From contig CAZWNZ010000002.1 of the NCBI GenBank assembly GCA_964635715.1, forward strand, positions 10,100 to 74,099: a stretch of DNA of 64,000 nt, read 5' to 3'. Source of the stretch: an uncultured Gammaproteobacteria bacterium. GTDB taxonomy: Bacteria; Patescibacteriota; Microgenomatia; UBA8517. Both the position numbers and the translations under genes were made by a program. The notes under the pieces are model-generated. The model did not search any database. It was not told the origin of the DNA and saw only the letters and a list, made by a program, of their open reading frames with translations. Of the stretch, positions 6,050-52,367 are shown one piece after another (the first letter of the stretch is position 1; each line of letters begins with the position of its first letter).

Positions 6050-6925
6050 ATGAAGAAATATGAATCTGGTCAGGCTTTGGTATTAATACTTCTTTCTCTT
6101 TCGGTTGTTTTAACGATAATTTTATATGTTTTGTCCCGCTCAGTCACAGATATCTCGATTTCCACTCAACAAAATGATTCTGTTAGGGCTTTTTCAGCTG
6201 CTGAGGCCGGAATAGAAAATGCTTTAATTACCGGGGTTGGTACGGGGGGTGATGTGACAATCGGTGATGCTACTTATTCGGTCGAAGTTTTAAATTCAGG
6301 CTCTACGACGTTTAATTATCCAGACTCTATGCTTTCCGGAGATACGATGACTTTATGGTTTGTTTCTCACAAAAGCGATGGTAGTTTAACTTGTGGCTCA
6401 GGGTATCCTGCATGTTTTACCGGAAATACTGTCAAAGTTTGTTGGGGAAAGTCGGGAACATCATCTTCCGGTACATCAACTCCGGCTCTTGAGGTTAGTG
6501 TTTATTACGAATCTATTCCAGGAGACCTTTCCAGTATAAAAGTTGTTCGATCTACATACGACCCGAATGCTTCCAGAATTTCCTCGAATTCTTTCGGGTC
6601 TGCAGTGACAAGTTTGTGTACAATAGACGGAATCGGTTATGCATTTCAAAATACAATAACTTTGTCGGAATTGGGAGGTGTGAGTTTTAACAATAATGGT
6701 TTATTGTTTGCAAAAATTAAAATGTTATATAACACCGATGTGGCACATCCTATCGGTTTTAGCGCTTCCGAAGCTCTTCCTTCTCAAGGGCTAGAGGTTG
6801 TTTCGACAGGAACTTCCGGTGCCGGAAGTAGTCAAAGCAATCGCAAAATTAGCGTATTTCAGGGTTGGGCGGAGTTTCCTCTCAGCGGTTTTTCACTTCT
6901 GGTTCCAGCTGGAATTACAAAATAG
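6050..6925 (+). CDS. PilX-like minor pilin / pilus tip-associated protein
   Basis: N-terminus MKKYESGQALVLILLSLSVVLTII followed by ...AFSAAEAGIENAL resembles the PilX N-terminal domain. About 290 aa. Confidence 0.45.
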   Translation: MKKYESGQALVLILLSLSVVLTIILYVLSRSVTDISISTQQNDSVRAFSAAEAGIENALITGVGTGGDVTIGDATYSVEVLNSGSTTFNYPDSMLSGDTMTLWFVSHKSDGSLTCGSGYPACFTGNTVKVCWGKSGTSSSGTSTPALEVSVYYESIPGDLSSIKVVRSTYDPNASRISSNSFGSAVTSLCTIDGIGYAFQNTITLSELGGVSFNNNGLLFAKIKMLYNTDVAHPIGFSASEALPSQGLEVVSTGTSGAGSSQSNRKISVFQGWAEFPLSGFSLLVPAGITK

Positions 6926-6985
6926 GATAGTTAGTTATCCTTGACGTTTAGGTGTTTTTTATTGTTAAATGAACTATATACTGCC

Positions 6986-9698: not shown

Positions 9699-9705
9699 AT
9701 GGGGA

Positions 9706-10377
9706 CTATTGTACCTTTTTTGTTAGCACCTGGCAAGCAGCTTCCTGCTCGGCCGCACTTTTATTTTTACCCTCTCCCCTGCCCCAGGATTTTCCATTGA
9801 CAAGAACTTCTATAACAAACTTTTTGTTATGATCAGGTCCAGATTCCTCAACTACCTGATATTTAGGAGCACCATAGCCTTTAGCCTGCACTTCCTCCTG
9901 AAGTCTGCTTTTATAATCTTTTAGCGGTTTACTTGCTTTTTCAGAAGCACTTACAAGAATGTTTTCCTGGATAAACTTTTCCGCTTCTATAATCCCCTTA
10001 TCAATAAAAATTGAACCGATAATAGCTTCAATTGTGTCAGCCAACAGAGAAGGATTCGTTCTCCCTCCACCATCTTCCTCACCTTTTGACAAAAATAGGT
10101 AGGGTCCTATTTCCAGTTTGGTTGCAATTTCTGCAAGTGAAATAGTATTTACCAGATTTGCACGAAGCGCAGTGAGATATCCCTCTTCCTTTTCCGGATA
10201 TTGGTCATATATTGATTTTGAAACAACATATTCGAGAATTGCATCTCCCAAAAACTCCATTCTTTCATTGGAATTTCTTACACCTTTGTGCTCATTTACC
10301 CATGAACGATGCGTCAGTGCTTGATCAAACAGGTCAACGTTTTTGTAGGTAATTTTAAGTTTATCTATGTTTTTCAT
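9706..10377 (-). CDS. rnc: Ribonuclease III
   Basis: ERMEFLGDAILEYVVS RNase III signature plus a C-terminal dsRBD. Confidence 0.9.
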   Translation of the reverse strand: MKNIDKLKITYKNVDLFDQALTHRSWVNEHKGVRNSNERMEFLGDAILEYVVSKSIYDQYPEKEEGYLTALRANLVNTISLAEIATKLEIGPYLFLSKGEEDGGGRTNPSLLADTIEAIIGSIFIDKGIIEAEKFIQENILVSASEKASKPLKDYKSRLQEEVQAKGYGAPKYQVVEESGPDHNKKFVIEVLVNGKSWGRGEGKNKSAAEQEAACQVLTKKVQ

Positions 10378-21396: not shown

Positions 21397-21490
21397 ACTA
21401 TTGTTTAGCTAATGGCTAATAGTTCACCCATTTTACACTAAAAAAGCCTCCCTTTTGTAGGAGGCCAATTTAAATCAAAGCTTTACCTCC

Positions 21491-21841
21491 TTATTCAGAT
21501 TTGGTAAAGCCTGCTTCTTTCACTATTTTTTTGAAAGTTTCAGGATCTTTTGAGGCAATATCGGATAAGATTTTTCTATCAATCTCAATTTTCTCCTTCT
21601 TAAGGCCTGCTATAAACTTGCTGTAGGAAATGTCAAGAGATTTAACCGCCGCGTTGATTCTGGAAATCCATAAGGTTCTTAAATTTCTCTTCTTGAGTTT
21701 TCTGCCATGATAAGCATAGGCTCCGGCATGAAGGACAGCTTCTTTAGCAGTTTGAATTCTGCGGCCCCTTGCTTGCTTGTACCCTTTGGCTCTGGCCAAA
21801 ATTTTTCTATGTCTTATAGCTGAAACTGATTTAACTCTCAT
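21491..21841 (-). CDS. rplT: 50S ribosomal protein L20
   Basis: MRVKSVSAIRHRKILARAKGYKQARGRRIQTAKEAV... is the canonical L20. Confidence 0.9.
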   Translation of the reverse strand: MRVKSVSAIRHRKILARAKGYKQARGRRIQTAKEAVLHAGAYAYHGRKLKKRNLRTLWISRINAAVKSLDISYSKFIAGLKKEKIEIDRKILSDIASKDPETFKKIVKEAGFTKSE

Positions 21842-21844
21842 TGT

Positions 21845-21900
21845 GTTAGTAACTAGTAGTTAGTAGTTAGTAGTTAGGTTTTTTCCTAACTACTAGATTC
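21845..21900 (-). repeat. TAG-rich stop-codon repeat hairpin in the rpmI-rplT intergenic region
   Basis: gtaactagtagttagtagttagtagttagg-tttttt-cctaactactag forms an ~11-bp stem. It belongs to a motif family also present at 31790-31818 and 32367-32425. Confidence 0.5.
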
Positions 21901-21906
21901 TAATTT

Positions 21907-22131
21907 CTAACTTCTAGTTTGTGCTCCTTTCCTGGTTTTCTTTCCAACAGCCTTTTTTACCTTTTTGGCGTAAAAACCCTTTAATTCGATAGTCTTTTTA
22001 AGGTTTCTAAGCTGCTTGCTGCTTTTACTGCTTTTCAAATGTCTCCTAAAACCTTGACGACGCATAACCTTACCGGTTTTGGTAATCTTAAATCTGTTTG
22101 TTATTGATTTTCTGACTTTACGTTTATTCAT
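21907..22131 (-). CDS. rpmI: 50S ribosomal protein L35
   Basis: MNKRKVRKSITNRFKITKTGKVMRRQ... is the canonical L35. Confidence 0.85.
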   Translation of the reverse strand: MNKRKVRKSITNRFKITKTGKVMRRQGFRRHLKSSKSSKQLRNLKKTIELKGFYAKKVKKAVGKKTRKGAQTRS

Positions 22132-22163
22132 TACTTTTTTCTCCTTCGATTCACTTTGCTCGC

Positions 22164-22739
22164 TTAGGACTTCACTTCGTTCAACTTCTCTTTCTTTACT
22201 TCCTGTCTTTTGGCATTTACCTTATTTGTTGGCGAAATCACTGTAACCAAATGTTTGCCAAGAAACTTTGGTTCCATATCGGTGATAATTGTATCACCAA
22301 ATACTCCCTTAATTTTATTAATTACGTCGTACCCTGTGTGTTTGACCCTCATTTGAGGTCCCTTAAAAACAACAACAACTCTTACTTTATTTTTGTCTTC
22401 AAAAAATTCCCTGATCCTCTCGACCCTTGTATTAAAATCGTTCTCGGCTATAAAAGGACTAAAACGAATCTCCTTAACTTCCCCACCCTTTACTTTTTTA
22501 GCTTGTGTACGTGCTTTTTTCTCTTCTGCGTATCTAAATTTTCCAAAATCTACAATTTTTGCAACAGGTGGTGTGGCTCCTGGTGCAATTTCGACAAGTG
22601 TTAATCCTGCCTCTTTTGCTTTCGCAATTGCCTCATCCCGCTTCAATTCCCCAATCATTTTTCCTTCCGAATCGACAACCCTAAGAGAGGGAGCTCTGAT
22701 CTGAAAGTCTGTCCGCCAAAAAAGATTTTGTTTTCCCAA
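22164..22739 (-). CDS. infC: Translation initiation factor IF-3 (apparent TTG start)
   Basis: IF3 N- and C-domains (RAPSLRVVDSEGKMIGEL...; KEIRF...VKHTG). The first in-frame start after an upstream stop is TTG at 22739. IF3 genes characteristically use non-AUG starts. Confidence 0.85.
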   Translation of the reverse strand: MGKQNLFWRTDFQIRAPSLRVVDSEGKMIGELKRDEAIAKAKEAGLTLVEIAPGATPPVAKIVDFGKFRYAEEKKARTQAKKVKGGEVKEIRFSPFIAENDFNTRVERIREFFEDKNKVRVVVVFKGPQMRVKHTGYDVINKIKGVFGDTIITDMEPKFLGKHLVTVISPTNKVNAKRQEVKKEKLNEVKS

Positions 22740-22757
22740 TGTTTAACTTGTATGTGA

Positions 22758-22786
22758 ATTGTACCTAAAAAAGTAAATTTATTCAA
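22758..22786 (-). promoter_or_regulatory. Sigma70-type promoter for infC
   Basis: Minus strand TTGAAT, a 17-nt spacer, then TACAAT, about 18 nt upstream of the TTG start. Confidence 0.45.
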
Positions 22787-23032
22787 GAAGGTCGTTGATG
22801 CAATAAAAAACTAGGAAATTTGGCTATATCTTCCTGGTTTTAAAGGTTATATTTCAGGTCTGGGAATGATTTTACTGGTAATAACGAAAGCAGGGGAAAC
22901 GCATGCAACATTTTCTATCTGCGATGCAATTATTCTCGCGTTTTTGTTGTTTTTCAACGAAACAACGATGTTTGCAGTGTATTCTACACCAGTGGAAAGG
23001 TCTGAAACCATTATTTCTGAAATCTCAGATTT

Positions 23033-23116
23033 TCAGGGAACAGCCCATATAAGCTCTGCTACCCATTCCGGGTTGAACGAATATTTAACCCGGACGTAAA
23101 CAAATGTTTTTATCAT
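23033..23116 (-). CDS. Possible 27-aa micro-ORF with a strong Shine-Dalgarno site, in the thrS-infC gap
   Basis: Minus strand AAGGAGGcaaaATG encodes MIKTFVYVRVKYSFNPEWVAELIWAVP*. It is one of very few perfect SD sites in the window. Its function, if any, is unknown. Confidence 0.2.
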   Translation of the reverse strand: MIKTFVYVRVKYSFNPEWVAELIWAVP

Positions 23117-23245
23117 TTTGCCTCCTTGAGCAAATTGAGTTTGTTTTTAAACAGCAAGCTGACAATTTTTATTCCATTAACAAAAAACGCTTTGTTTTTT
23201 GACTGAGGCGATTTTATCCGAAAGTATGAGGGAAAGCAAGAAAAG

Positions 23246-24997
23246 TTAACTAATTATTTTTTCCTCAATCTCTTTTTTCAAAGCTTTAATGAAGTCATCT
23301 AAATCTTTACTTCCCAAGTCTTCCCCGTTTCTTTTTCTTACGGCAACTTTATTGGCTTCTGCCTCACGGTCGCCAACTACAAACATGTAAGCAACTTTTT
23401 CGTTTTGGGCGTTTCTGATTTTATTCCCAAGGGTCTCGTTTTTGTCATCAAGTTCGGCTCTAACTCCAGCCTTTTTTAGTTCAGCTAATACCTTTTTGGC
23501 GTAATCCAAATGGCGTTCAGCAATTGGCAATACTTTTACCTGAACCGGTGTTAGCCATGTTGGGAAATTGCCCCCAAAGTGTTCAATAAGAATCATTAAG
23601 AATCTTTCAGGAGATCCAACTATGGCTCTATGGATCATCACCGGCCTTTTCTCTTTTCCGTCAGAATCAATATAAGTCAGTTTAAATCTTTCAGGTAGGA
23701 AATAATCAATTTGAACAGTTGAAAGCTGCCACTCTCGTCCCAATGAATCCTTGGCAATTAAGTCCATCTTTGGTGCATAGAAAGCTGCTTCTCCAGGACC
23801 TTCAAAATATTCAATATTATTCCTCTTCATTATCTCCTCTGCCCACTTCTCTGTCTTGTCCCAGACTTTCGGGTCGCCTATATATTTATCCGGATTTTTA
23901 GGATCTCTTGTAGAAAGTCTGTATTTATAAGTAAGACCAAAGGTTTTCATTATTTCCTTGGTCATAGTGAGGGCGCGGTCCACTTCTTCATCCACCTGGT
24001 CTTCGCGGCAGAAAACATGGCAATCATCTTGAGAAAAGGCACGTACTCGGGCAAGTCCTGAAAGTTCGCCCGGTTTTTCATCTCGATAAAGCATCGCAAA
24101 ATCAGTTAAGCGAATTGGCAAATCCCGATAGCTTCTTGCCTGCGAGGCATAAATTTGGGTATGCTGAGGGCAATTCATGGGTTTTAGGTAAAATTCCTCA
24201 TCGGAATAACTGGACATCACTTTAAACATTGAATCTTTGTAATGGTCATAATGTCCGGAAGTTTTGAAAAGATCCGCTTTTGCAATCTGGGGAGTCCAAA
24301 CCTGGGTATAGTCTTCTTTTGATTGAACGGACTCAACGTAGTCATTCACAAGCCTTCTTAAAAGTGCTCCTTTTGGCGTATAAAGAGGAAGTCCTGCTCC
24401 TACAAGTTCGGAAAAGGTAAATAGATCTAATTCTTTCCCGAGTTTTCTATGATCGCGCTTTTTAGCTTCTTCCTTCATTGCAAGAAAATCGTTAAGTTCT
24501 TTATCTGTCGGAAAAATTGTGCCGTAAATTCTGGTTAACATCTTATTCTTCTCGTCTCCCCGCCAATAAGCACCTGCCACTGAAAGAAGTTTAAAATGTT
24601 TAAGTTCGGCAGAAGGATTTTCAATGTGTCCCCCGCGGCAAAGATCGCGGAAGTTTCCGGATTGGTAAACAGTCAGTTCATCGCTATCTTTTGAATGCTC
24701 GTTGATAAGTTCTTCTTTGTATTCATTTCCTTTAAACTCTTTCAAGGCTTCTTCTTTTGTCAAAACATTTTTCTCAAATGATTTCCATGATTTAACAATC
24801 TCGTGCATTTTTTCCTCAATCTTTGGAAACTCAGCTTCGGAAATTTTTGTCTCACCAAGGTCGATATCATAATAAAATCCGCTTTCGATTGCCGGACCAA
24901 GAGTTAATTTGGCTTTTGGCCACAAGTCCATTACGGCTGCGGCCATAAGGTGTGAACACGAATGCCTAAGAAATTCAAGATTCTTCAAATCTTTCAT
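23246..24997 (-). CDS. thrS: Threonine--tRNA ligase (lacks the N-terminal TGS domain)
   Basis: Starts in the second additional domain (HSCSHLMAAAV zinc/editing motif), then a class II core and anticodon-binding domain. 583 aa. Confidence 0.85.
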   Translation of the reverse strand: MKDLKNLEFLRHSCSHLMAAAVMDLWPKAKLTLGPAIESGFYYDIDLGETKISEAEFPKIEEKMHEIVKSWKSFEKNVLTKEEALKEFKGNEYKEELINEHSKDSDELTVYQSGNFRDLCRGGHIENPSAELKHFKLLSVAGAYWRGDEKNKMLTRIYGTIFPTDKELNDFLAMKEEAKKRDHRKLGKELDLFTFSELVGAGLPLYTPKGALLRRLVNDYVESVQSKEDYTQVWTPQIAKADLFKTSGHYDHYKDSMFKVMSSYSDEEFYLKPMNCPQHTQIYASQARSYRDLPIRLTDFAMLYRDEKPGELSGLARVRAFSQDDCHVFCREDQVDEEVDRALTMTKEIMKTFGLTYKYRLSTRDPKNPDKYIGDPKVWDKTEKWAEEIMKRNNIEYFEGPGEAAFYAPKMDLIAKDSLGREWQLSTVQIDYFLPERFKLTYIDSDGKEKRPVMIHRAIVGSPERFLMILIEHFGGNFPTWLTPVQVKVLPIAERHLDYAKKVLAELKKAGVRAELDDKNETLGNKIRNAQNEKVAYMFVVGDREAEANKVAVRKRNGEDLGSKDLDDFIKALKKEIEEKIIS

Positions 24998-25197
24998 AAA
25001 ATTACAAATTCTAAATGCTAAAATCTAAATTTAGTTTACATGAAGACGGGTCAAATTAGAAGATCCGTGGTTCCACTTCAATTTCCCTCGATTTCTCTCA
25101 GGACTCTTTGAGACTTCTTTCTACTCCGTAGTTGGTGAGTCTATTTCAACGTAGAAATGGTTTAACACTCATAATTTAAACTTTTACTAAATCAAAG

Positions 25198-27009
25198 TCA
25201 ATGTTTGGCTAGTTTAGCGGCTTTTCTTGCTTCAACTTCGTCCAGAATTACTTTTCTGATACGAACTGATTTTGGAGTTATCTCGACTAGCTCCGTATCA
25301 TCAATGTACTCCAATGCTTCCTCAAGTCCCATTCTGTGAGGAGCATTAAAATGCTCCATACAACCGTCTCCCTTACTTCTCATGTTACTTAGTTTCTTTT
25401 CCTTACAGGCATTGACTCTCAAGTCTCCTGCCCTACAACCTTGTCCAATAACTTGGCCTTTGTATATTTTTTCTGCGGGTCCAACAAAAAATTCTCCCTG
25501 ATCCTGAACCTGTGTCATCCCATAAAGTCTCGTTTCACCTGTTTCGTAGGCAACTAAACTTCCACGATCACGCTCGCGGGTAAACCCATCATCTGGTAAA
25601 AATTCATAGAAAGCTGCGTTCATTATTCCCAAGCCTTTGGTGTCGGTTATAAATTCACTTCTAAAACCAATAAGTTCTTTTGTGGCGACAGTAAACTCGA
25701 CATATGTAATCCCTTCTGTTGTTTCCAGATTGTCCATTTTGGCATGTCTTTGACCCATTTTTTGAATAACAATTCCGGAATATTCTTCGGGAACTTCAAC
25801 ATATACTTTTTCAAAAGGCGTCATTGTTTTTCCGTCTTCAATGTGAGTAATAACATGGGGGCGACTAACTGCAAATTCATAGCCCTCGCGCCTAATGCGC
25901 TCGATAAGTATGGCCAAATGAAGTTCTCCTCTGCCGGAAACAGTCCAAGTTCCGTCCGAATTATCCTCAACTTTTAAAGCAACATCGGTATCAAGCTCTT
26001 TATAAAGACGGGCTCTAATCTGACTACTGGTTTTGAATTCTCCCTCTTTTCCTCCAAAAGGAGAAGAGTTAACCATAAAAATCATTTTAACTGTGGGCTG
26101 CTCAATCTCGAGAAGAGGTAAAGCAATTGGCGTAATAGGATCGGCTATCGTTTCCCCAATATTGATATCGAGTATTCCGGTAACAGCCACAAGATCTCCC
26201 GCCATGGCCTCTGATTCTTCAATTTTCCCCAAACCCTTAAAAGTTGAAAGCGAAGTAATTTTGCACTTTTTAATTTGCCCATCGCGGTTTATATGAGCGA
26301 TATCTTGACCGTTTACTATTTTTCCGGAATGGATTTTGCCGATAGAAATTCTACCTTTATAGTTGTCGTAGCCAATGTTGCTGACAAGCATTTGCAATGG
26401 CTTTTGGTCATTAATTATTGGTTTAGGAATATATTCTAAAATGGCATCAAAAATTGGGCAAATGTCGGTCATTTTTTCTAATTCAGGTTCAAGCCCTGCT
26501 TTGCCGTCGCGTCCTGAGGCGTAAACTGTCGGGAAAAGGGCGGTTTCTTCGTTTGCACCAAGTTCACAGAAAAGATCAAAAGTTTTGCCTTGCACCCATT
26601 CAGGTCTGGCCCCTTTTTTATCAATCTTATTTACAATGACAATAATCTTAAGTCCCAATTTAAGAGCTTCTCTTAATACAAATCGAGTTTGAGGCATTGG
26701 GCCTTCCTTTGCATCAACTAATAAAAGAGCTCCATCAGCCATAGAAAGAACACGTTCTACTTCCCCGCCAAAATCAGCATGGCCTGGAGTATCAATAATA
26801 TTTATCTTTACGCCTTTCCATTCAACTGAAGCATTTTTGGAAAAAATAGTAATTCCACGCTCACGCTCCAGTTCGTTACTGTCAAGAATAGTATCTTGCT
26901 CGGCAACTTCCTTTTTCATTTCGGTGTGGCTTTGACGCAAAAGAGCGTCGACCAGAGTTGTTTTACCGTGGTCAACGTGAGCAATAATAGCAACATTTCG
27001 TATTTCCAT
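25198..27009 (-). CDS. typA: Translational GTPase TypA/BipA
   Basis: [18 protein letters not shown]1 motif, EF-G-like domains, and a BipA C-terminal domain. Confidence 0.9.
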
Positions 27010-28208: not shown

Positions 28209-28349
28209 ATGCTTGCTTTGATAGTTGCCTGTATCGGCATTGCTTTGTTTTTACTTAGGCGCAATGAAGATGTGTGGATCTGTCAGGATGAAGTCTGGAT
28301 AAAGCACGGAAACCCCACGGCAACGATGCCTCCCACTCCCTGCAAATAG
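28209..28349 (+). CDS. Possible 46-aa membrane-anchored micro-protein
   Basis: MLALIVACIGIALFLLRRNEDVWICQDEVWIKHGNPTATMPPTPCK, preceded by an extended -10 element (TGgTATAAT) near 28155-28163. Confidence 0.2.
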   Translation: MLALIVACIGIALFLLRRNEDVWICQDEVWIKHGNPTATMPPTPCK

Positions 28350-28361
28350 TATAATTACCAC

Positions 28362-30861: not shown

Positions 30862-31764
30862 CTAAATCAAATTAATAAGAAAATCCAGTGCAGCCCTGCG
30901 CCTCAAAATTGATTCTGTTAATCTTTTTCTGCTTTCAATCTCATCACCATCGACACTTTTGCCATTTTTGTTTATTTGTGACATAGCCAAAGCAGCTTCG
31001 ACTTCTTTTTCATCTATTTTTATGTTTTCCGTTTTGGCAACTTCGCTAAGTATTAAATCGAGAGAAATGGCATCTTTTGCCTGTTTTGCATAATCTGCAC
31101 GAAGATCTTCTGCTTTTTTACCAATTGAAGCTAAATATCCTTCTAAGGCCAAACCCAGTTTTTCAAGGCGTTCCAAAAGAGCTGAAAGGCGACTATCCGC
31201 CTCTTCCTCAATCAGTATTTGAGGTATATTTATTTTAACGTTATCGAGAATTGTTTTTAAAACCACTTGTTCCTTTTCTTCATGAGTCGGTTCTTTCTTT
31301 TCATCCGGTTTGCCCTTGTCGGGAGTCCAAAGATTGGATGCATTAGAAGCTCCAACTATTTCCTTTTTGTAGTCACCAAGATCAACTTTAGGTAACTCAC
31401 AAGTTATAGCTCTTATTTGCCAGGCTTCACCCTCTTTGGCATTAACCAATTCAAATTTTGGGTATATTGCAATTTGAAGTTTGTTTTCAGTTATGGCGGT
31501 AGCTAAAGCCTCTGGCAGCAAGTGACTTAGGGAATGTTCGATAAGTGTGTTTTGAGGAATTTTAGCCTCAACTTTATCCAAAGGAGCCATTCCCTTTCTG
31601 AATCCCGGAATCTCCACATCTTTAGCAAATTCCTTTATTACACTAGCTTGAGCATTTTTGATTTCGGCAAATGGAATAGTAAAAGTAATCTGAATATTGC
31701 CATTATCTTCGCGCGCAACCACCGATGTTATTTTGTCCCCTGAAAGGTTTTTTTGATCAGCCAT
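30862..31764 (-). CDS. tig: Trigger factor-like chaperone (short form)
   Basis: N-terminal ribosome-binding domain with EIPGFRKGMAPL (GFRxGxxP signature). About 300 aa, apparently lacking a full PPIase domain. Start is at MADQKN (31764); the ORF track gives 31785. Confidence 0.65.
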   Translation of the reverse strand: MADQKNLSGDKITSVVAREDNGNIQITFTIPFAEIKNAQASVIKEFAKDVEIPGFRKGMAPLDKVEAKIPQNTLIEHSLSHLLPEALATAITENKLQIAIYPKFELVNAKEGEAWQIRAITCELPKVDLGDYKKEIVGASNASNLWTPDKGKPDEKKEPTHEEKEQVVLKTILDNVKINIPQILIEEEADSRLSALLERLEKLGLALEGYLASIGKKAEDLRADYAKQAKDAISLDLILSEVAKTENIKIDEKEVEAALAMSQINKNGKSVDGDEIESRKRLTESILRRRAALDFLINLI

Positions 31765-31789
31765 GAAGGTATTATACTTCAGCAAGTAA

Positions 31790-31818
31790 ATTCTAGCTAC
31801 TAGTAACTAGCTACTTGC
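31790..31818. repeat. TAG-rich stop-codon repeat motif (tagctac-tagtaac-tagctac)
   Basis: Intergenic between tig and a small ORF. It shares AGTAACTAG/CTAGCTAC words with 21845-21900 and 32367-32425. Confidence 0.45.
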
Positions 31819-32029
31819 CCCCAGAAGGCCCGCCTTTGTGTTGGGTGTGGAAAGTAGCCTGATTAAATTTTGCTCCAGGTGAGCCTTTGGGTACAAATCC
31901 CTTATTTCCTGAAAACATAGATTGTTTTTTGAAGCCAAAACCCATTGACGGCAATTTATTTTTTTGTGTTTTATCGTTGTTATTTGTCATTTGTACATAA
32001 ATATTATATACTATACACAGAGTTTTCAA
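31811..32029 (-). CDS. Hypothetical small Gly/Lys-rich protein
   Basis: 72-aa ORF (...MGFGFKKQSMFSGNKGFVPKGSPGAKFNQATFHTQHKGGPSGGK), low complexity. May be spurious. Confidence 0.2.
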   Translation of the reverse strand: MKTLCIVYNIYVQMTNNNDKTQKNKLPSMGFGFKKQSMFSGNKGFVPKGSPGAKFNQATFHTQHKGGPSGGK

Positions 32030-32105: not shown

Positions 32106-32366
32106 ATGCAATCCAAGCTATTTGTTGGTAATTTAGCGTGGGAAGTAACCGCAGAAGATCTTAAAGCCCTTTTTGCAGAAGCAGGAACTGTTGCTGATGC
32201 CGCTGTCATTTCTGATAGAATGACTGGCAGAAGCAGAGGTTTTGGTTTTGTAACTATGGGTAGTGATGCTGAAGCGCAGGCAGCTGTTGAGAAATTTAAT
32301 CAATACGAGCTTAAAGGCCGCAAGATTAATGTCAATATTGCCAGACCCATGGAACCAAGACAGTAA
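32106..32366 (+). CDS. RRM-type RNA-binding protein
   Basis: RNP2 KLFVGNL and RNP1 RGFGFVTM motifs. 86 aa. Confidence 0.8.
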   Translation: MQSKLFVGNLAWEVTAEDLKALFAEAGTVADAAVISDRMTGRSRGFGFVTMGSDAEAQAAVEKFNQYELKGRKINVNIARPMEPRQ

Positions 32367-32425
32367 CTAGTAGCTTGTAGCTAGTAGTTAGTAGATAGGT
32401 TCGGAAGATAGTTAGTAGTAGGTTC
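32367..32425. repeat. TAG-rich stop-codon repeat motif downstream of the RRM gene
   Basis: ctagtagcttgtagctagtagttagtagataggttcggaagatagttagtagtagg. A GCCGCAAGGCGG hairpin follows at ~32453-32464. Confidence 0.45.
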
Positions 32426-32494
32426 GATAAAGGGACTTAGTACGTACGAATAAGCCGCAAGGCGGATTTTGAAAGAGTTAGCTATCTTTTTAAC

Positions 32495-33550
32495 TCAATG
32501 GATATTCTTTCTGAAGAACTCCAAATTGTTTTCTACGACCATATCCCAATTTGGTCTCATGTTGTGATCCGTCCCTGAATATTTCATATAGACTGCTGAG
32601 ACCGTCGCCTCTTCAAGTTTTTTATTTAAATTATCGCTGTGCCAGTATGGTACTGCAGTATCGATAGTTCCCTGGTTTAGTTGGATTGGTGCTTTAATAA
32701 AACTTAAATAGTTCGTGAGCGAAAATTTTTCAGCATCATATGTATTTTCAAAATCTGCCGTTTCTTCTATCAGAAATTTTCCCCCATCTTCAGCCTCGTC
32801 AATATAATAAAGAATAGATGCGGGGAATCTCATTGAAACAGGTGCCCAAAGAACTGTCGGGTAGTTTACACCTGTAATTTCAAGTGTAGTTAAGGCAACC
32901 TGTCCTCCATTACTATGTCCCCAAATAAATATATTTTTACTATCCCACTTTTCTAATGAATTAACTGATTTCAGTGTGACTGCAGCAGTTACCCATGTTT
33001 GGAATCGTGACTCGAATATGTCAGTAGCTTCTTTATCGCTTTCTCCATATCCCATAAAGTCAGGCGCCACTGTTATGTAGCCATTTTGGGCAAACACTTT
33101 CGCCGATGGTTGAGTGCCCGCACCCATCACGTAAGTCTCCTGACTGACAAAACCTCTAAACATCACGACAACCGGAAACGTCCCGTTGCTTTTTGGAATA
33201 TTGATTACTCCGGAAACGGTTTTTAGGTTTCCCGAAAGGTCGGGGCTAAACTGCATGGAGTATTTGTATGTCGAATAGTCGTCAGTTTCCGAGATCAAAT
33301 CCCCTATTTCAATTTTATTTTCAGGAAAATTTACTTTAGAGAGATTCTCTATGGAGTATTTGTAAAGCGGGGTAGGTTTAATTTGCGAGACCACCTCAGT
33401 AACTTTATTTGTTTCCTTGGGAAGAGTGTAAAGAATCCTTCCAAACCAGCCGATGGAGATAAAAACAGTAGTTAGTATCAAGTAGTAAGTAGCTTGTTTA
33501 AATTTGTGCATGTTTAATTTTAACATGTGTTGTCCCATACAATTTATCAT
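32495..33550 (-). CDS. Secreted alpha/beta-hydrolase (S9/dienelactone-hydrolase-like)
   Basis: N-terminal TM/signal anchor and a GHSNGG nucleophile elbow (G-x-S-x-G). Confidence 0.5.
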   Translation of the reverse strand: MINCMGQHMLKLNMHKFKQATYYLILTTVFISIGWFGRILYTLPKETNKVTEVVSQIKPTPLYKYSIENLSKVNFPENKIEIGDLISETDDYSTYKYSMQFSPDLSGNLKTVSGVINIPKSNGTFPVVVMFRGFVSQETYVMGAGTQPSAKVFAQNGYITVAPDFMGYGESDKEATDIFESRFQTWVTAAVTLKSVNSLEKWDSKNIFIWGHSNGGQVALTTLEITGVNYPTVLWAPVSMRFPASILYYIDEAEDGGKFLIEETADFENTYDAEKFSLTNYLSFIKAPIQLNQGTIDTAVPYWHSDNLNKKLEEATVSAVYMKYSGTDHNMRPNWDMVVENNLEFFRKNIH

Positions 33551-45524: not shown

Positions 45525-45603
45525 AGTGAAGAGTGGGAATGAACGCAGCGATTATCCCGCTCCAAGTCATCGAGGAGCAAGGGAATGAGCGCAGCGATTA
45601 TCC
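45525..45603. repeat. Two ~33-nt direct repeats (46-bp period) downstream of tRNA-Gly(TCC)
   Basis: GGGAATGAACGCAGCGATTATCCCGCTCCAAGT and GGGAATGAGCGCAGCGATTATCCTACTCCAAGT. Both contain the word TTATCCCGCT/TTATCCTACT, which resembles the tRNA-Gly 3' end (CTATCCCGCT). Confidence 0.5.
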
Positions 45604-45620
45604 TACTCCAAGTTTATATG

Positions 45621-50212: not shown

Positions 50213-50270
50213 CTTGCAGGGTCGGACCCTGCAAGGTGTATATAGTATATATAGTGTATTAGTATTTTTG
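50213..50270 (+). repeat. Palindrome plus AT-rich/T-run element that shares ~29 nt with the pilD coding sequence
   Basis: CTTGCAGGGTCGGACCCTGCAAG palindrome (50213-50235), then gtgtatatagtat...tagtattttt. 50220-50248 matches pilD 2388-2416 (ggtcCgaccctAcaaggtgtatatagtat) at 27/29 positions. Confidence 0.5.
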
Positions 50271-50279
50271 GGGTATTGG

Positions 50280-50333
50280 GGTGGTCGACGCGAGTCGAAC
50301 GCGCAAACCCCCCGCCCTGGCGGGGTGCTCTAA
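50280..50333 (-). other. 3' half of a split tRNA-like element (variable, T-arm, acceptor 3' strand, C73), preceded by a palindromic direct repeat
   Basis: Minus strand TTAGAGCACCCCGCCAGGGCGGGG-GGTTT-GCGCG-TTCGACT-CGCGT-CGACCAC-C. The acceptor 3' strand is perfectly complementary to the 5' half at 50684-50725. Confidence 0.55.
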
Positions 50334-50575
50334 CTTAGACCTAATAATTTTTTGAAAGCGTTTCCTCCTTTATATGATTTAATCAGATATTCTCTTTTAG
50401 AGGCTAATTGTCTAGATTCAAACTCTTCCGAATAAATCAGTTTATATGGTCCTTTGTTTCTTGTAGAGATATTCTTACCATGGTTATGTTCAATTAATCT
50501 ACGTTGTATGTCTGAAGTTGACCCAATATAATATCTACCATTTTTAATACTCTGAAGAATATATACATAAAACAT
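50330..50575 (-). CDS. Small GIY-YIG nuclease-superfamily protein (YhbQ/UPF0213-like)
   Basis: MFYVYILQSIKNGRYYIGSTSDIQRRLIEHNHGK...KGPYKLIYSEEFESRQLASKREYLIKSYKGGN shows GIY...YIG, R, E and N core residues. The ORF-track N-terminal extension is a translation of tRNA-His. Confidence 0.7.
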   Translation of the reverse strand: MFYVYILQSIKNGRYYIGSTSDIQRRLIEHNHGKNISTRNKGPYKLIYSEEFESRQLASKREYLIKSYKGGNAFKKLLGLS

Positions 50576-50585
50576 ATTTGGTGTG

Positions 50586-50659
50586 GGTGGGTGAGCGGAT
50601 TCGAACCGCCAACCTCCTGCTCCACAGGCAGGCGCTCTAACCATTGAGCTACACCCACC
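50586..50659 (-). tRNA. tRNA-His (anticodon GTG) with encoded G-1
   Basis: G-GTGGGTG-TA-GCTC-AATGGTTA-GAGC-G-CCTGC-CTGTGGA-GCAGG-AGGTT-GGCGG-TTCGAAT-CCGCT-CACCCAC-C. G-1:C73 is His-specific. Confidence 0.85.
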
Positions 50660-50683
50660 AAATAAGTATTACGAAGCAACCAC

Positions 50684-50725
50684 CCCGCCATGGCGGGGTG
50701 CTCTAACCATTGAGCTACGACCACC
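50684..50725 (-). other. 5' half of a split tRNA-like element (G-1, acceptor 5' strand, D-arm) ending in the palindromic direct repeat
   Basis: Minus strand G-GTGGTCG-TA-GCTC-AATGGTTA-GAGC-A-CCCCGCCATGGCGGGG. The D-arm is nearly identical to that of tRNA-His. No T-arm follows. Confidence 0.55.
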
Positions 50726-50796
50726 AAGTCAACATGAGTATTTTATCATTTTTGCTTCAAAATGGCTAAGCTTGATTATTACACGCCGAATTCCAA

Positions 50797-52341: not shown

Positions 52342-52367
52342 TTTACGTTGTAATTATATCACTTCGC

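What the first reader, a model, noticed from the sequence alone, without database searches (positions are those of the whole stretch)
21845..21900. Family of TAG-rich, all-frame stop-codon repeat elements in three intergenic sites
The words AGTAACTAGTAG, CTAGTAGTTAGTAG and TAGCTAC recur at three sites: 21845-21900 (rpmI-rplT spacer, forming an 11-bp hairpin with a T6 loop), 31790-31818 (upstream of tig) and 32367-32425 (after the RRM gene). All three place stop codons in every frame on both strands. All three abut translation or chaperone genes. The organism uses the standard code (TGA ends recG and tyrS), so these are not recoding artefacts. Candidate roles are transcript-processing or stability hairpins, a translational-coupling barrier, or a protein/L20-binding regulatory site in the r-protein operon. 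This looks like a lineage-specific intergenic element family.
Basis: seen in the sequence. Interest (0 to 1): 0.5.

Follow-up and report, generated by a model that had tools for sequence, protein, structure and literature searches.

The report
TAG-rich heptamer repeats between genes
Several short gene spacers in this Woesebacteria-like (candidate phyla radiation) bacterium are filled with tandem 7-base repeats rich in the stop codon TAG; this is an already described kind of bacterial simple-sequence repeat and is absent from the nearest relatives, although one copy folds into a hairpin that may couple translation of two ribosomal-protein genes.

Summary
Three sites (21842-21916, 31782-31818, 32364-32399) are the only strong TAG/CTA clusters in the window and far exceed shuffled expectation. 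They are period-7 tandem arrays (TAGTAGT / TTAGTAG / TAGCTAG). With a 7-nt period, TAG falls in all three frames. Each array starts at or just before the stop codon of the upstream gene (rpmI, a conserved 59-aa ORF, the RRM gene). A fourth array abuts the thrS start codon.

They are not a conserved lineage-specific element. The closest relatives (L20 82-90% identical) have overlapping or short rpmI-rplT junctions with no array. Other relatives carry different heptamers in the same spacers. Near-identical TAG/CTA arrays and hairpins occur inside operons of unrelated, high-GC bacteria.

Heptamer simple-sequence repeats in bacterial intergenic DNA are already described. The closest match is the TAACTGA repeats, which also sit just before SD-less start codons in ribosomal-protein operons.

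Best reading: slippage-derived heptamer arrays, tolerated at gene ends because they terminate any frame. The rpmI-rplT copy is a stable spacer-spanning hairpin (-25.8 kcal/mol) that plausibly enforces RNA-unfolding translational coupling, as known for E. coli rpmI-rplT. I found no support for L20 binding or terminator roles.

Verdict: new member of a known kind, modest interest.

The parts
21885..21916 (-). Site 1, 5' arm in mRNA sense: CTAGAAG TTAGAAA TTAGAAT CTAGTAG TTAGG. This is (TAGNNNN)x5. It overlaps the last three rpmI codons, and the rpmI stop codon is TAG at 21907-21909.
   Evidence: Sequence. TRF period 7 at 21898-21920. Inverted repeat I16. Fold.
21879..21884 (-). Site 1 loop: A6 in the mRNA, T6 on the + strand.
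21842..21878 (-). Site 1, 3' arm in mRNA sense: CC TAACTAC TAACTAC TAACTAC TAGTTAC TAACACA, in register with and ending at the rplT ATG (21839-21841). It is G-poor and has no Shine-Dalgarno. On the + strand it reads (TAGTAGT)n, TRF period 7, 4.7 copies.
   Evidence: Predicted pairing ends 9 nt before the AUG.
21491..22131 (-). rpmI (21907-22131) and rplT (21491-21841), the genes flanking site 1. A canonical intrinsic terminator follows rplT at 21445-21466.
   Evidence: Pfam L35p and L20. Terminator scan.
31782..31818 (-). Site 2. The TAG stop of the conserved 59-aa ORF (31811-31813) is followed by CTAG TTAC TAGTAGC TAGAATT. The site lies inside an imperfect hairpin GCAAGTA...TACTTGC, directly upstream of a TATAAT box that sits 6 nt before the tig ATG (31762-31764).
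   Evidence: (fold z only -1.7).
32364..32399 (+). Site 3 array. The RRM-gene stop TAA is followed by CTAGTAG CTTGTAG CTAGTAG TTAGTAG ATAGG (TRF period 7, 5.3 copies), on the sense strand of the RRM gene, between convergent genes.
   Evidence: A degenerate homologue occurs only in L010, and the block is absent in L004 and L005.
32405..32489 (+). Conserved 3'-UTR / intergenic element (AAGATAG ... GCGGATTTTGAAAGAGTTAGCTATCTTT) that includes the RRM terminator-like hairpin. It is not a repeat array.
   Evidence: Alignment A1 with L004, L010 and L005..
24998..25029 (-). Fourth array, not in the finding: TTTAGAT TTTAGCA TTTAGAA TTTGTAA TTTT. It abuts the thrS ATG (24995-24997), downstream of a T-box-like leader, and has no SD.
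   Evidence: L003 and L010 carry (ATTAGAA)n at the same place. L004, L005 and L006 have an SD instead.
6923..6937 (+). Mini TAG cluster TAGGATAGTTAGTTA, starting at the TAG stop of an unannotated gene and preceding pilM.

Best explanation
The sites are heptanucleotide simple-sequence-repeat arrays. The units are TAGTAGT / TTAGTAG / TAGCTAG, with complement CTAACTA / TAACTAC. They are species-specific and turn over fast.

Inferred origin: replication slippage of 7-nt units. For site 1 there was also an inverted duplication that made the two arms.

Shown anatomy: a 7-nt period that contains TAG (and TAA on the other strand) puts a stop in every frame. Such an array can therefore grow right up to, or over, the 3' end of a gene, and the ORF simply ends at the first in-frame TAG. 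This is why all three arrays start at the stop codon of the upstream gene, and why TAGTTAG arrays were never found inside ORFs.

Consequences, inferred:
(a) Any ribosome leaving the upstream gene, in any frame, terminates within about 12 nt.
(b) At rpmI-rplT the two complementary arms form a stable hairpin. Its 5' arm contains the rpmI stop. Its 3' arm is the G-poor, SD-less leader of rplT. A ribosome finishing rpmI must melt the outer stem, and that exposes the rplT start region. This is RNA-unfolding translational coupling, as established for the +52-nt rpmI-rplT spacer of E. coli.

Sites 2, 3 and the thrS array are most likely near-neutral spacer filler. Their side effects are frame closure and A/U-rich, SD-independent start regions.
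For: Period-7 arrays:
- TRF finds period 7 at 21845-21877 (4.7 copies) and 32362-32398 (5.3 copies).
- The arrays begin at the stop codons.

Not conserved at site 1:
- The rpmI-rplT junction overlaps in L204, L205 (L20 90% identical) and L208 (86%).
- It is 4-6 nt in L004 and L010, and 32-36 nt without an array in L003 and L005.

Turnover at the other sites:
- The small ORF-tig spacer carries (AATTTAC)n in L005 and L010.
- The thrS 5' end carries (ATTAGAA)n in L003 and L010, but an SD in L004, L005 and L006.
- The site-3 block exists only in degenerate form in L010.

The same class occurs elsewhere. In thrS-anchored loci that were not chosen for repeats:
- TAG-heptamer arrays begin at the stop codon in L035 (13.7 copies), L076 (8.4 copies, followed by a terminator) and L027.
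- One lies just after the stop in L041.
- In L013 an array fills the whole spacer between convergent genes.

The metagenome scan gives arrays and hairpins with a TAG-rich 5' arm and a CTA-rich 3' arm inside operons of organisms with 58-66% GC.

Six-frame closure restricts location: 0 of 29 viral TAGTTAG arrays lie inside ORFs, against 9 of 22 for TGATTGA.

Literature: heptameric SSRs are over-represented in bacterial intergenic DNA and are attributed to polymerase slippage (PMC4692102). TAACTGA heptamers end about 1 nt before RBS-less start codons, include r-protein operons, and overlap ORF ends by no more than 18 nt (PMC4679880).

Coupling at site 1:
- The hairpin is -25.8 kcal/mol, z = -5.3, or z = -8.2 against mononucleotide shuffles.
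- rplT has neither an SD nor a usable -10 box, whereas rpmI has GAAGGAG.
- A non-homologous spacer-spanning hairpin occurs in L206 (-28.9 kcal/mol), and TAG/CTA arms occur in L024.
- E. coli precedent: PMC12548453.
Against: - No copy-number polymorphism could be shown. The only other assemblies of this organism are 99.9-100% identical, so slippage is inferred, not observed.
- Three arrays with closely related units within 11 kb, and an 88% match over 34 nt, fit poorly with fully independent origins. Some sequence preference or copying process is implied.
- The bias towards a TAG-rich 5' arm and a CTA-rich 3' arm in hairpins (13 loci against 3) is not predicted by pure neutrality. Neither is the sense-strand bias after stop codons (about 30 against 9 over; crude gene calls).
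- Long rpmI-rplT spacers are not always structured. L013 has MFE 0, and L009 and L019 are unremarkable. A hairpin is therefore not required for rplT expression.
- Structure directly after a stop codon has been reported to reduce coupling in E. coli libraries (PMC12548453).
- In the window's intergenic DNA as a whole there is no period-7 signal.
Confidence: 0.55

Rival explanations
1. Selected 'stop-and-restart' modules. The TAG-rich 5' arm is maintained by selection as a three-frame fail-safe terminator. The complementary CTA/TAA-rich, G-poor 3' arm is maintained as an SD-independent landing pad. The hairpin enforces coupling or insulates neighbouring cistrons. The module has arisen convergently, or spread, in many phyla.
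For: - The arrays start at stop codons, with TAG on the sense strand, in the window and in L027, L035, L041, L076 and L013.
- Hairpins show a 13:3 polarity bias towards a TAG-rich 5' arm.
- In organisms with 58-66% GC the hairpins span the whole spacer from stop to SD or start inside operons. From the flanking protein sequences I read these as pdhB-pdhC, sufC-sufB and a spacer upstream of rplD.
- Arrays replace the SD before thrS and rplT.
- TAGTTAG 21-mers are about 2-2.6 times commoner in viral contigs than composition-matched stop-free units.
Against: - The element is absent from the nearest relatives, which manage with overlapping or short junctions.
- TAG is not the most efficient stop codon, and TAA would be expected under selection for termination (my own background knowledge).
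- The 2-fold excess is small, and the 14-mer scan of a very large collection is expected to return many chance hits and hits from unrelated SSRs.
- Copy numbers up to 13.7 (L035) far exceed what frame closure needs.
Confidence: 0.17
2. Sequence-specific cis-regulatory sites. The repeated UAG / CUA words are binding sites for a protein (L20, the neighbouring RRM protein, S1 or a CspA-like protein) or for an sRNA, forming a small post-transcriptional regulon of translation and chaperone genes.
For: - Related words occur at three or four sites next to rpmI/rplT, tig, the RRM gene and thrS.
- One array lies in the RRM gene's own 3' UTR, next to a conserved structured element.
- The analogous proposal (S1, Csp or CsrA binding) was made for the TAACTGA repeats (PMC4679880).
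Against: - The sites are not conserved in relatives that keep the same genes and synteny, including a 94%-identical RRM protein.
- No Rfam L20-leader or other family match was found.
- The same arrays flank unrelated genes elsewhere, and flank pilM in the window.
- The orientation relative to transcription differs between sites.
Confidence: 0.1
3. RNA-processing, stability or termination hairpins. The structures would be RNase III sites separating cistrons, 3'-end stabilisers, or terminators or insulators (including for antisense transcription).
For: - Site 1 forms about 27 bp of interrupted duplex.
- RNase III is encoded in the window at 9706-10377.
- The + strand of site 1 matches a loose terminator pattern.
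- In high-GC contigs the arrays often sit between a stop codon and a GC-rich terminator.
Against: - On the sense strand no U-tract follows the hairpins at site 1 or site 2.
- Canonical GC-rich terminators exist separately after rplT (21445-21466) and after the RRM gene.
- The site 2 fold is not better than shuffles (z = -1.7).
- Terminator-like matches in the region are not above the shuffled expectation (10 against 10.8).
- Arrays such as the one in L013 are completely unstructured.
Confidence: 0.1
4. Miniature mobile palindromic elements (REP-, BIME- or MITE-like) that insert at gene ends and carry stops in all frames.
For: - Presence or absence varies between close relatives.
- Site 1 has a palindromic architecture.
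- Similar 40-60-nt TAG/CTA hairpins occur in unrelated genomes.
- Sites 1 and 3 are 88% identical over 34 nt.
Against: - There are no target-site duplications or defined conserved termini.
- The copies differ in length and architecture: one hairpin, one imperfect hairpin, one direct array.
- The similarity between copies is what two arrays of the same 7-mer give by construction.
- I saw no transposase or RAYT-type gene among the window genes I annotated, but I annotated only about 20 of the 67 ORFs.
- The site-3 block aligns with a diverged block of similar length in L010. That suggests in-place evolution rather than insertion.
Confidence: 0.07
5. A chance aggregation of TAG-rich low-complexity sequence in AT-rich spacers.
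For: The genome is 38% GC, and intergenic DNA is enriched in stop trinucleotides.
Against: 0 of 100 and 0 of 200 shuffles reach the observed values. There is a clear 7-nt register over 4-5 units.
Confidence: 0.01

Closest known systems
TAACTGA heptamer direct repeats of marine Beggiatoaceae, cyanobacteria and some Bacteroidetes (MacGregor 2015, PMC4679880)
   Same: - Tandem 7-nt units, 2-6 copies per set, and intergenic.
- The 'forward' orientation ends at or within a few nt of a start codon that lacks an RBS.
- They are found inside ribosomal-protein and translation operons (pheS, fusA, S1, L3, S4).
- The forward strand has stops in all frames, so they can overlap ORF ends only slightly.
- Sets are interrupted by related 7-mers.
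- Distribution is patchy and non-phylogenetic.
- The sense-strand unit before rplT (TAACTAC) matches TAACTGA at 5 of 7 positions.
   Different: - The unit sequence differs: TAG-based rather than TAA + TGA.
- The host lineage differs (Patescibacteria / Woesebacteria-like).
- Here the arrays are anchored at stop codons as much as at start codons.
- One copy is an inverted pair forming a stable hairpin, whereas TAACTGA repeats are predicted to be unstructured and only one inverted case was reported.
- Genome-wide abundance is unknown here, against 169 sets in BOGUAY.
Over-represented intergenic heptameric SSRs: cyanobacterial STRR heptamers, and GGGAATC / GGGGAYT repeats of Xanthomonas and Nostoc (Rehm et al. 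2015, PMC4692102, citing Mrazek et al. 2007)
   Same: - Period-7 tandem arrays confined to intergenic DNA.
- Each genome has its own favoured unit.
- Length and sequence vary extensively between close relatives at the same spacer.
- Occasional inverted pairs can form stem-loops.
- Polymerase slippage is the proposed origin.
   Different: Those units are G-rich and can form G-quadruplexes. The units here are A/T-rich, built on stop codons, and closed in six frames.
RNA-unfolding translational coupling of E. coli rpmI-rplT (reviewed in PMC12548453)
   Same: - The same gene pair, with a long spacer (+52 nt in E. coli, +65 nt here).
- Secondary structure involves the end of rpmI and the region upstream of rplT.
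- The downstream gene has weak independent initiation signals.
   Different: - There is no sequence homology.
- In E. coli the inhibitory pairing and the L20-binding pseudoknot are experimentally defined. Here everything is predicted.
- The structure is absent from the nearest relatives, whose genes overlap.
REP / BIME / MITE-type intergenic palindromic repeats
   Same: Short palindromic intergenic sequences located after stop codons, with presence or absence varying between relatives.
   Different: There are no conserved termini or target duplications, the internal structure is a 7-nt tandem repeat, and the copies are heterogeneous.
Tandem or additional 3' stop codons ('fail-safe' termination, out-of-frame 'ambush' stops)
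   Same: Several stops in all frames immediately downstream of the authentic stop.
   Different: Those concepts concern single extra codons and weak statistical trends. Here there are regular repeat arrays of up to 8 TAGs, almost exclusively TAG, extending well beyond what fail-safe termination needs.

Membership tests
Intergenic heptanucleotide SSR arrays (generic class) | Head-to-tail repeats of a 7-nt unit, at least 3 copies | tested here: met
   TRF: 21845-21877 period 7, 4.7 copies, 84% matches. 32362-32398 period 7, 5.3 copies. 25006-25031 period 7, 3.7 copies. Site 2 shows only about 3 irregular units.
Intergenic heptanucleotide SSR arrays (generic class) | Confined to non-coding DNA | tested here: met
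   The coding fraction is 0-0.14 for the three arrays, and only the outer unit of site 1 overlaps 3 codons of rpmI. 0 of 29 viral TAGTTAG arrays lie inside ORFs.
Intergenic heptanucleotide SSR arrays (generic class) | Rapid turnover or copy-number variation between related genomes | tested here: met
   Orthologous spacers in L003, L004, L005, L010, L204, L205 and L208 lack the arrays or carry other heptamers. Within-population copy-number variation could not be tested because L001, L002 and L203 are identical.
TAACTGA repeat family (PMC4679880) | The unit sequence is TAACTGA | tested here: not met
   The units are TAGTAGT / TTAGTAG / TAGCTAG. The sense-strand unit before rplT is TAACTAC, 5 of 7 identical.
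TAACTGA repeat family (PMC4679880) | Forward orientation ending within a few nt of a start codon that lacks an RBS | tested here: met
   The rplT array is in register up to the ATG with no SD. The thrS array abuts the ATG with no SD. This is not met for site 3 (convergent genes) or site 2 (28 nt upstream, with a promoter in between).
TAACTGA repeat family (PMC4679880) | Many sets per genome (about 170) with one dominant unit | not testable with these tools
   Only 64 kb of this genome is available. It holds 4-5 arrays with two related unit types.
Rho-independent terminator | GC-rich stem followed by a U-tract on the transcribed strand | tested here: not met
   On the sense strand the site-1 hairpin is followed by ACUAACACAAUG and the site-2 hairpin by UGAAGUAUAAU. 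The scan flags only the antisense strand of site 1, and the total number of hits is not above shuffles. True terminators lie at 21445-21466 and about 32450-32470.
L20 autoregulatory leader (Rfam L20_leader) / L20-binding mimic of 23S rRNA | Match to the covariance model or a conserved L20-binding structure | tested here: not met
   There is no hit at the gathering threshold over the whole window, nor at E<=5 over 21400-25300. The spacer is not conserved.
RNA-unfolding translational coupling element | Structure that includes the 3' end of the upstream ORF and sequesters the region upstream of the downstream start | tested here: met
   The predicted stem starts 10 nt before the rpmI stop codon and ends 9 nt before the rplT AUG, so positions -38 to -10 are paired. 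This is a prediction only.
RNA-unfolding translational coupling element | Downstream translation depends on upstream translation | not testable with these tools
   This needs a reporter or in-vitro translation experiment.
REP / MITE-like mobile palindromes | Conserved termini, target-site duplication, many near-identical copies | tested here: not met
   No direct repeats flank the sites and the copies are heterogeneous. Genome-wide copy number is not testable.

The most novel reading that the evidence does not exclude
TAG-heptamer / CTA-heptamer hairpins are a widespread, convergently selected class of intercistronic 'terminate-then-restart' modules.

In this reading the UAG-rich 5' arm releases ribosomes in any frame. 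Melting of that arm by the terminating ribosome exposes a G-poor, SD-independent 3' arm that loads the next initiation. Such modules would allow SD-poor, leaderless-type organisms such as CPR bacteria to keep stoichiometric coupling across long spacers.

The 13:3 arm polarity, the sense-strand anchoring at stop codons, and the replacement of SD sequences by arrays would then be signatures of function rather than of slippage.
Probability: 0.12. Interest if true: 0.6.

Novelty: new member of a known kind. Interest (0 to 1): 0.3.

Why it matters
If the ordinary reading is right, the value is mainly practical. Conspicuous TAG-rich, six-frame-closed stretches at gene ends in CPR and other genomes should be annotated as heptamer simple-sequence repeats. 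They should not be treated as conserved regulatory RNAs, recoding signals or assembly errors. They can also redefine the C-terminus of the upstream protein, as in L35 here.

The finding adds a CPR example, and a TAG-based unit, to the little-studied excess of heptameric SSRs in bacteria.

The rpmI-rplT copy offers a compact natural test case for RNA-unfolding coupling in an organism that mostly lacks Shine-Dalgarno sequences. If the arm polarity and stop-codon anchoring turned out to be selected, it would point to a simple, evolvable way of building intercistronic insulators.

Tried and rejected
- Rfam at gathering threshold over the whole window, and at E<=5 around all sites. Results were tRNAs only, a sub-threshold T-box upstream of thrS, and a meaningless mir-268 hit on the site-1 hairpin.
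- An own promoter for rplT inside the array. No hexamer with A2/T6 lies 5-8 nt before the ATG, unlike many other genes in the window. Rejected.
- The terminator reading. See the membership test.
- A global 7-nt periodicity of intergenic DNA. None was found in the window, in the relatives or in the controls, so the phenomenon is local arrays only. The many low-score period-7 TRF rows inside coding DNA were not pursued, and part of that excess may come from the simple Markov null.
- The fourth 'copy' at 33466-33499 is coding sequence.
- Strain-level copy-number variation. The only other assemblies of this organism are identical.
- Special abundance of TAGTTAG compared with composition-matched heptamers. 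In viral contigs the counts were 29 against 22 (TGATTGA), 14 and 11, which is only about a 2-fold excess. Among 25 period-7 arrays in the thrS-anchored loci, 8 contain TAG or CTA against roughly 22% expected, which is not significant.
- Literature search for the exact word TAGTTAGTAG returned only primers.
- The hypothesis that long rpmI-rplT spacers always form hairpins. This is true for the window, L206 and weakly L024, but not for L013, L009, L019, L003 or L005.
- The cross-phylum identity of the 14-mer is not evidence of horizontal transfer.
Full report
**Where we are.** The window is 38% GC and uses the standard genetic code: 67 crude ORF calls cover 90% of it, with stops TAA 35, TAG 17, TGA 15. 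Its genes are most similar to Candidatus Woesebacteria / Microgenomates MAGs, with thrS up to 83% identical. Pfam confirms, on the minus strand, thrS, infC, rpmI (21907-22131), rplT (21491-21841), pheS and pheT. It also confirms a PPIase-less tig (ATG at 31764), an RRM protein (32106-32366, +) and an alpha/beta-hydrolase convergent with it. A 59-aa ORF (31811-31990, -) just upstream of tig has no Pfam match but is conserved in four relatives.

**Checking the observation.**
TAGCTAC also occurs elsewhere, so it is not diagnostic.
- In 40-nt windows the three sites reach 10, 8 and 10 TAG/CTA trinucleotides, and nothing else exceeds 6.
- In 200 Markov shuffles the maximum never reached 10 and reached 8 or more in 9%.
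- TAGTTAGTAG with up to 1 mismatch gives 10 hits against 2.8 expected.
- Sites 1 and 3 share 30 of 34 nt.
- Site 1 has a 12-bp perfect stem with a T6 loop inside 32-nt arms that are 75% complementary.
- As RNA on the gene strand, site 1 folds at -25.8 kcal/mol, z = -5.3.
- All six frames are closed at sites 1 and 2. Five of six are closed at site 3.
- Independent Logan assemblies from two runs carry identical sequences.
- A weaker 'copy' at 33466-33499 encodes a transmembrane segment and is chance.

**Anatomy.** The sites are period-7 tandem arrays. On the gene strand, site 1 reads:

...ACU AGA AGU UAG | AAAT TAGAATC TAGTAGT TAGG | A6 | CC TAACTAC TAACTAC TAACTAC TAGTTAC TAACACA | ATG

- The 5' arm of site 1 is (TAGNNNN)x5. 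It starts inside the last three rpmI codons and supplies the rpmI stop.
- The 3' arm of site 1 is a G-poor (TAACTAC)n array in register with the rplT ATG. That ATG has no Shine-Dalgarno and no usable -10 box, whereas rpmI has GAAGGAG.
- Site 2 starts with the TAG stop of the 59-aa ORF, followed by CTAG TTAC TAGTAGC TAGAATT. It ends just before a TATAAT that lies 6 nt upstream of the tig ATG. This leaderless-type arrangement is seen at many genes here and is conserved at tig in L003, L004 and L006. The fold of site 2 is not significant (z = -1.7).
- Site 3 starts with the RRM stop: TAA CTAGTAG CTTGTAG CTAGTAG TTAGTAG ATAGG.
- A fourth array, TTTAGAT TTTAGCA TTTAGAA TTTGTAA TTTT, abuts the thrS ATG (24998-25029).
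- A mini-cluster follows a TAG stop before pilM (6923-6937).
- Because 7 mod 3 = 1, a TAG repeated every 7 nt occupies all three frames. The complement CTAACTA does the same with TAA.

**Conservation.** Synteny with L003, L004, L005, L006 and L010 is intact across all sites, so orthologous spacers can be compared directly.
- *rpmI-rplT.* The junction overlaps (TAAATAATG) in L204 and L205 (L20 90% identical) and in L208 (86%). It is 4-6 nt in L004 and L010, and 32-36 nt without an array in L003 and L005. The 65-nt hairpin is therefore specific to this species.
- *Small ORF-tig.* L005 and L010 carry (AATTTAC)n, which amounts to tandem TACAAT boxes. L003, L004 and L006 carry no array.
- *RRM 3' end.* The 20-nt TAG block is missing in L004 and L005 and aligns with a degenerate block in L010. 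From 32405 onward the sequence (AAGATAG...GCGGATTTTGAAAGAGTTAGCTATCTTT) is conserved in all.
- *thrS 5' end.* L003 and L010 have (ATTAGAA)n abutting the ATG. L004, L005 and L006 have an AAGGAGG-type SD instead.
- In short, the spacers are hot spots for heptamer arrays whose unit and presence turn over quickly. Intergenic DNA as a whole has no 7-nt periodicity.

**Elsewhere.** The thrS-anchored loci were not chosen for repeats, so they are an unbiased sample. Among them:
- TAG-containing heptamer arrays begin at the stop codon of the upstream gene in L035 (Patescibacteria, 13.7 copies), L076 (Alphaproteobacteria, 8.4 copies, followed by a terminator) and L027 (Bacteroidales).
- One lies 18 nt after a stop and before a terminator in L041 (Elusimicrobia).
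- In L013 (Shapirobacteria) an array fills the whole spacer between convergent genes. L013 also has an unstructured (ACTATTT)n array in its own rpmI-rplT spacer.

Even so, many hits are extended arrays or hairpins with a TAG-rich 5' arm and a CTA-rich 3' arm. These lie in contigs of 58-66% GC and span whole intra-operon spacers. From the N-terminal sequences of the flanking ORFs I identified these as pdhB-pdhC, sufC-sufB, a spacer upstream of rplD, and nap- and mevalonate-pathway genes; I did not confirm these identifications by a family search. Arm polarity is biased 13 loci to 3.

In viral contigs, three-unit 21-mers occur 29 times (TAGTTAG), 22 times (TGATTGA), 14 times (TTGGATA) and 11 times (TGGTATA). 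All are far above chance, with only about a 2-fold preference for the TAG unit. TAGTTAG arrays are never inside ORFs, whereas 9 of 22 TGATTGA arrays are, in antisense.

**What is known.** Heptameric SSRs are reported as over-represented in bacterial intergenic DNA, are variable between close relatives, and are attributed to polymerase slippage. Examples are the cyanobacterial STRR repeats and the GGGAATC repeats of Xanthomonas (PMC4692102). The closest description is the TAACTGA repeats of Beggiatoaceae, cyanobacteria and Bacteroidetes (PMC4679880):
- 2-6 tandem copies, mostly ending about 1 nt before start codons that lack an RBS;
- presence inside ribosomal-protein and translation operons;
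- stops in all forward frames, so that they overlap ORF ends by at most 18 nt;
- a patchy phylogenetic distribution with no known spreading mechanism.

The arrays here share all of these properties except the unit sequence (TAACTAC / TAGTAGT), the host lineage, and the hairpin arrangement at site 1. No paper in the library mentions the TAG unit.

**Mechanism.** *Shown:* the period-7 arrays, their anchoring at stop and start codons, six-frame closure, a stable predicted hairpin at site 1, lack of conservation, and recurrence of the class in other phyla.

*Inferred:*
- The arrays arise by slippage of 7-nt units. They persist only where any reading frame may be closed, so they expand until they meet the functional end of a gene and then define its stop codon.
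- At rpmI-rplT the hairpin pairs positions -38 to -10 of rplT with a stretch that includes the rpmI stop. A ribosome terminating on rpmI must open the outer stem. The E. coli rpmI-rplT pair (+52 nt) is the textbook case of such RNA-unfolding coupling (PMC12548453).
- A non-homologous spacer-spanning hairpin in L206 (-28.9 kcal/mol) and TAG/CTA arms in L024 fit the idea that long spacers at this junction tend to be bridged. L013, L009 and L019 show that this is not obligatory.

*Rivals:*
- selected stop-and-restart modules;
- protein- or sRNA-binding sites;
- RNase III, stability or terminator hairpins (RNase III is encoded at 9706-10377);
- mobile palindromes;
- chance.

The details and my confidence in each are in the rival-explanations section. 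The first rival is the most interesting reading the evidence does not exclude. It is favoured by the arm polarity and the sense-strand bias. It is disfavoured by the absence from close relatives, by the choice of TAG over TAA, and by copy numbers far beyond what frame closure needs.

**Verdict.** The interpretation as a lineage-specific regulatory family is only partly supported. These are TAG-based heptanucleotide repeat arrays, a new member of a known kind. One copy probably acts as a coupling hairpin. Interest is modest.

Noticed in passing
window 25039-25257 (-): A T-box-like leader lies upstream of thrS. The Rfam RF00230 hit scores 27.3 bits, well below the gathering score of 93, with E = 0.0025. 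The core AAGUGGAACCACG is conserved in L004, L005 and L006. L003 and L010 have a different leader at the same place. This looks like a divergent CPR T-box that the Rfam threshold misses.
   Followed up: partly
window 32405-32489 (+), with orthologues in L004, L010, L003 and L005: A conserved element lies between the convergent RRM and hydrolase genes. AAGATAG and GCGGATTTTGAAAGAGTYRRCTATCTTT are invariant in the aligned Woesebacteria, with a possible long-range helix AAGATAG/CTATCTT. L003 carries an insertion inside it. There is no Rfam match. It could be a 3'-UTR regulatory structure of the RRM gene or a bidirectional terminator.
   Followed up: partly
window, many gene starts (e.g. 31765-31776, 9699-9715, 28345-28361, 52342-52362): TATAAT-, TACAAT- or TATACT-like hexamers lie 5-8 nt upstream of many ATG codons, with no Shine-Dalgarno. 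This suggests that leaderless mRNAs are common in this organism. rpmI and the RRM gene are exceptions with GGAG-type motifs.
   Followed up: no
L005 4282-4313 and the orthologous spacer of L010: (AATTTAC)n heptamer arrays lie directly before the tig ATG. Each unit contains a TACAAT -10-like box, so the array amounts to tandemly duplicated promoter boxes. L044 (Elusimicrobia) has (AATTTAT)n in a similar position.
   Followed up: no
window 31811-31990 (-): A 59-aa Gly/Lys-rich ORF (MTNNNDKTQKNK...HKGGPSGGK) lies upstream of tig. It is conserved in L003, L004, L005 and L010 (55-77% identity) and has no Pfam family.
   Followed up: partly
window 50303-50334 / 50676-50707 and 50631-50661 / 50697-50727; also 2381-2445 / 50213-50277: Duplicated segments lie next to tRNA-His, including a partial copy of the tRNA 3' half. 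A 65-nt repeat (CTTGCAGGGTCGGACCCTGCAAGGTGTATATAGTA...) is shared with a site 48 kb away, also in inverted form.
   Followed up: no
window 45535-45567 / 45581-45613: A tandem pair of a 33-nt motif (GGGAATGARCGCAGCGATTATCC...), 91% identical and spaced 46 nt apart, lies beside a tRNA cluster.
   Followed up: no
L206 5380-5443 (Logan SRR27710318): A relative with 84% L20 identity has a 60-nt rpmI-rplT spacer of unrelated sequence. It also folds into a spacer-spanning hairpin (-28.9 kcal/mol, z = -4.7).
   Followed up: yes
L089, L091, L097, L106, L114, L115, L126, L129, L160, L161, L164, L169, L178, L181 (mostly sample Ga0307507): About 15 AT-rich contigs share a conserved element of about 130 nt (AATAAATTATTCTATATTAGATAGGAGTCC...CTAGTAGTTAGTAGGT...). 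It contains the searched 14-mer. It appears to be a dispersed repeat of some other organism, possibly eukaryotic or organellar, and is unrelated to the bacterial arrays.
   Followed up: no
L107 1855-2051: In a contig of 61% GC, one spacer holds a TAG-heptamer array after a stop codon, then a GC-rich hairpin, then a second heptamer array (CTCCTAA)n.
   Followed up: no
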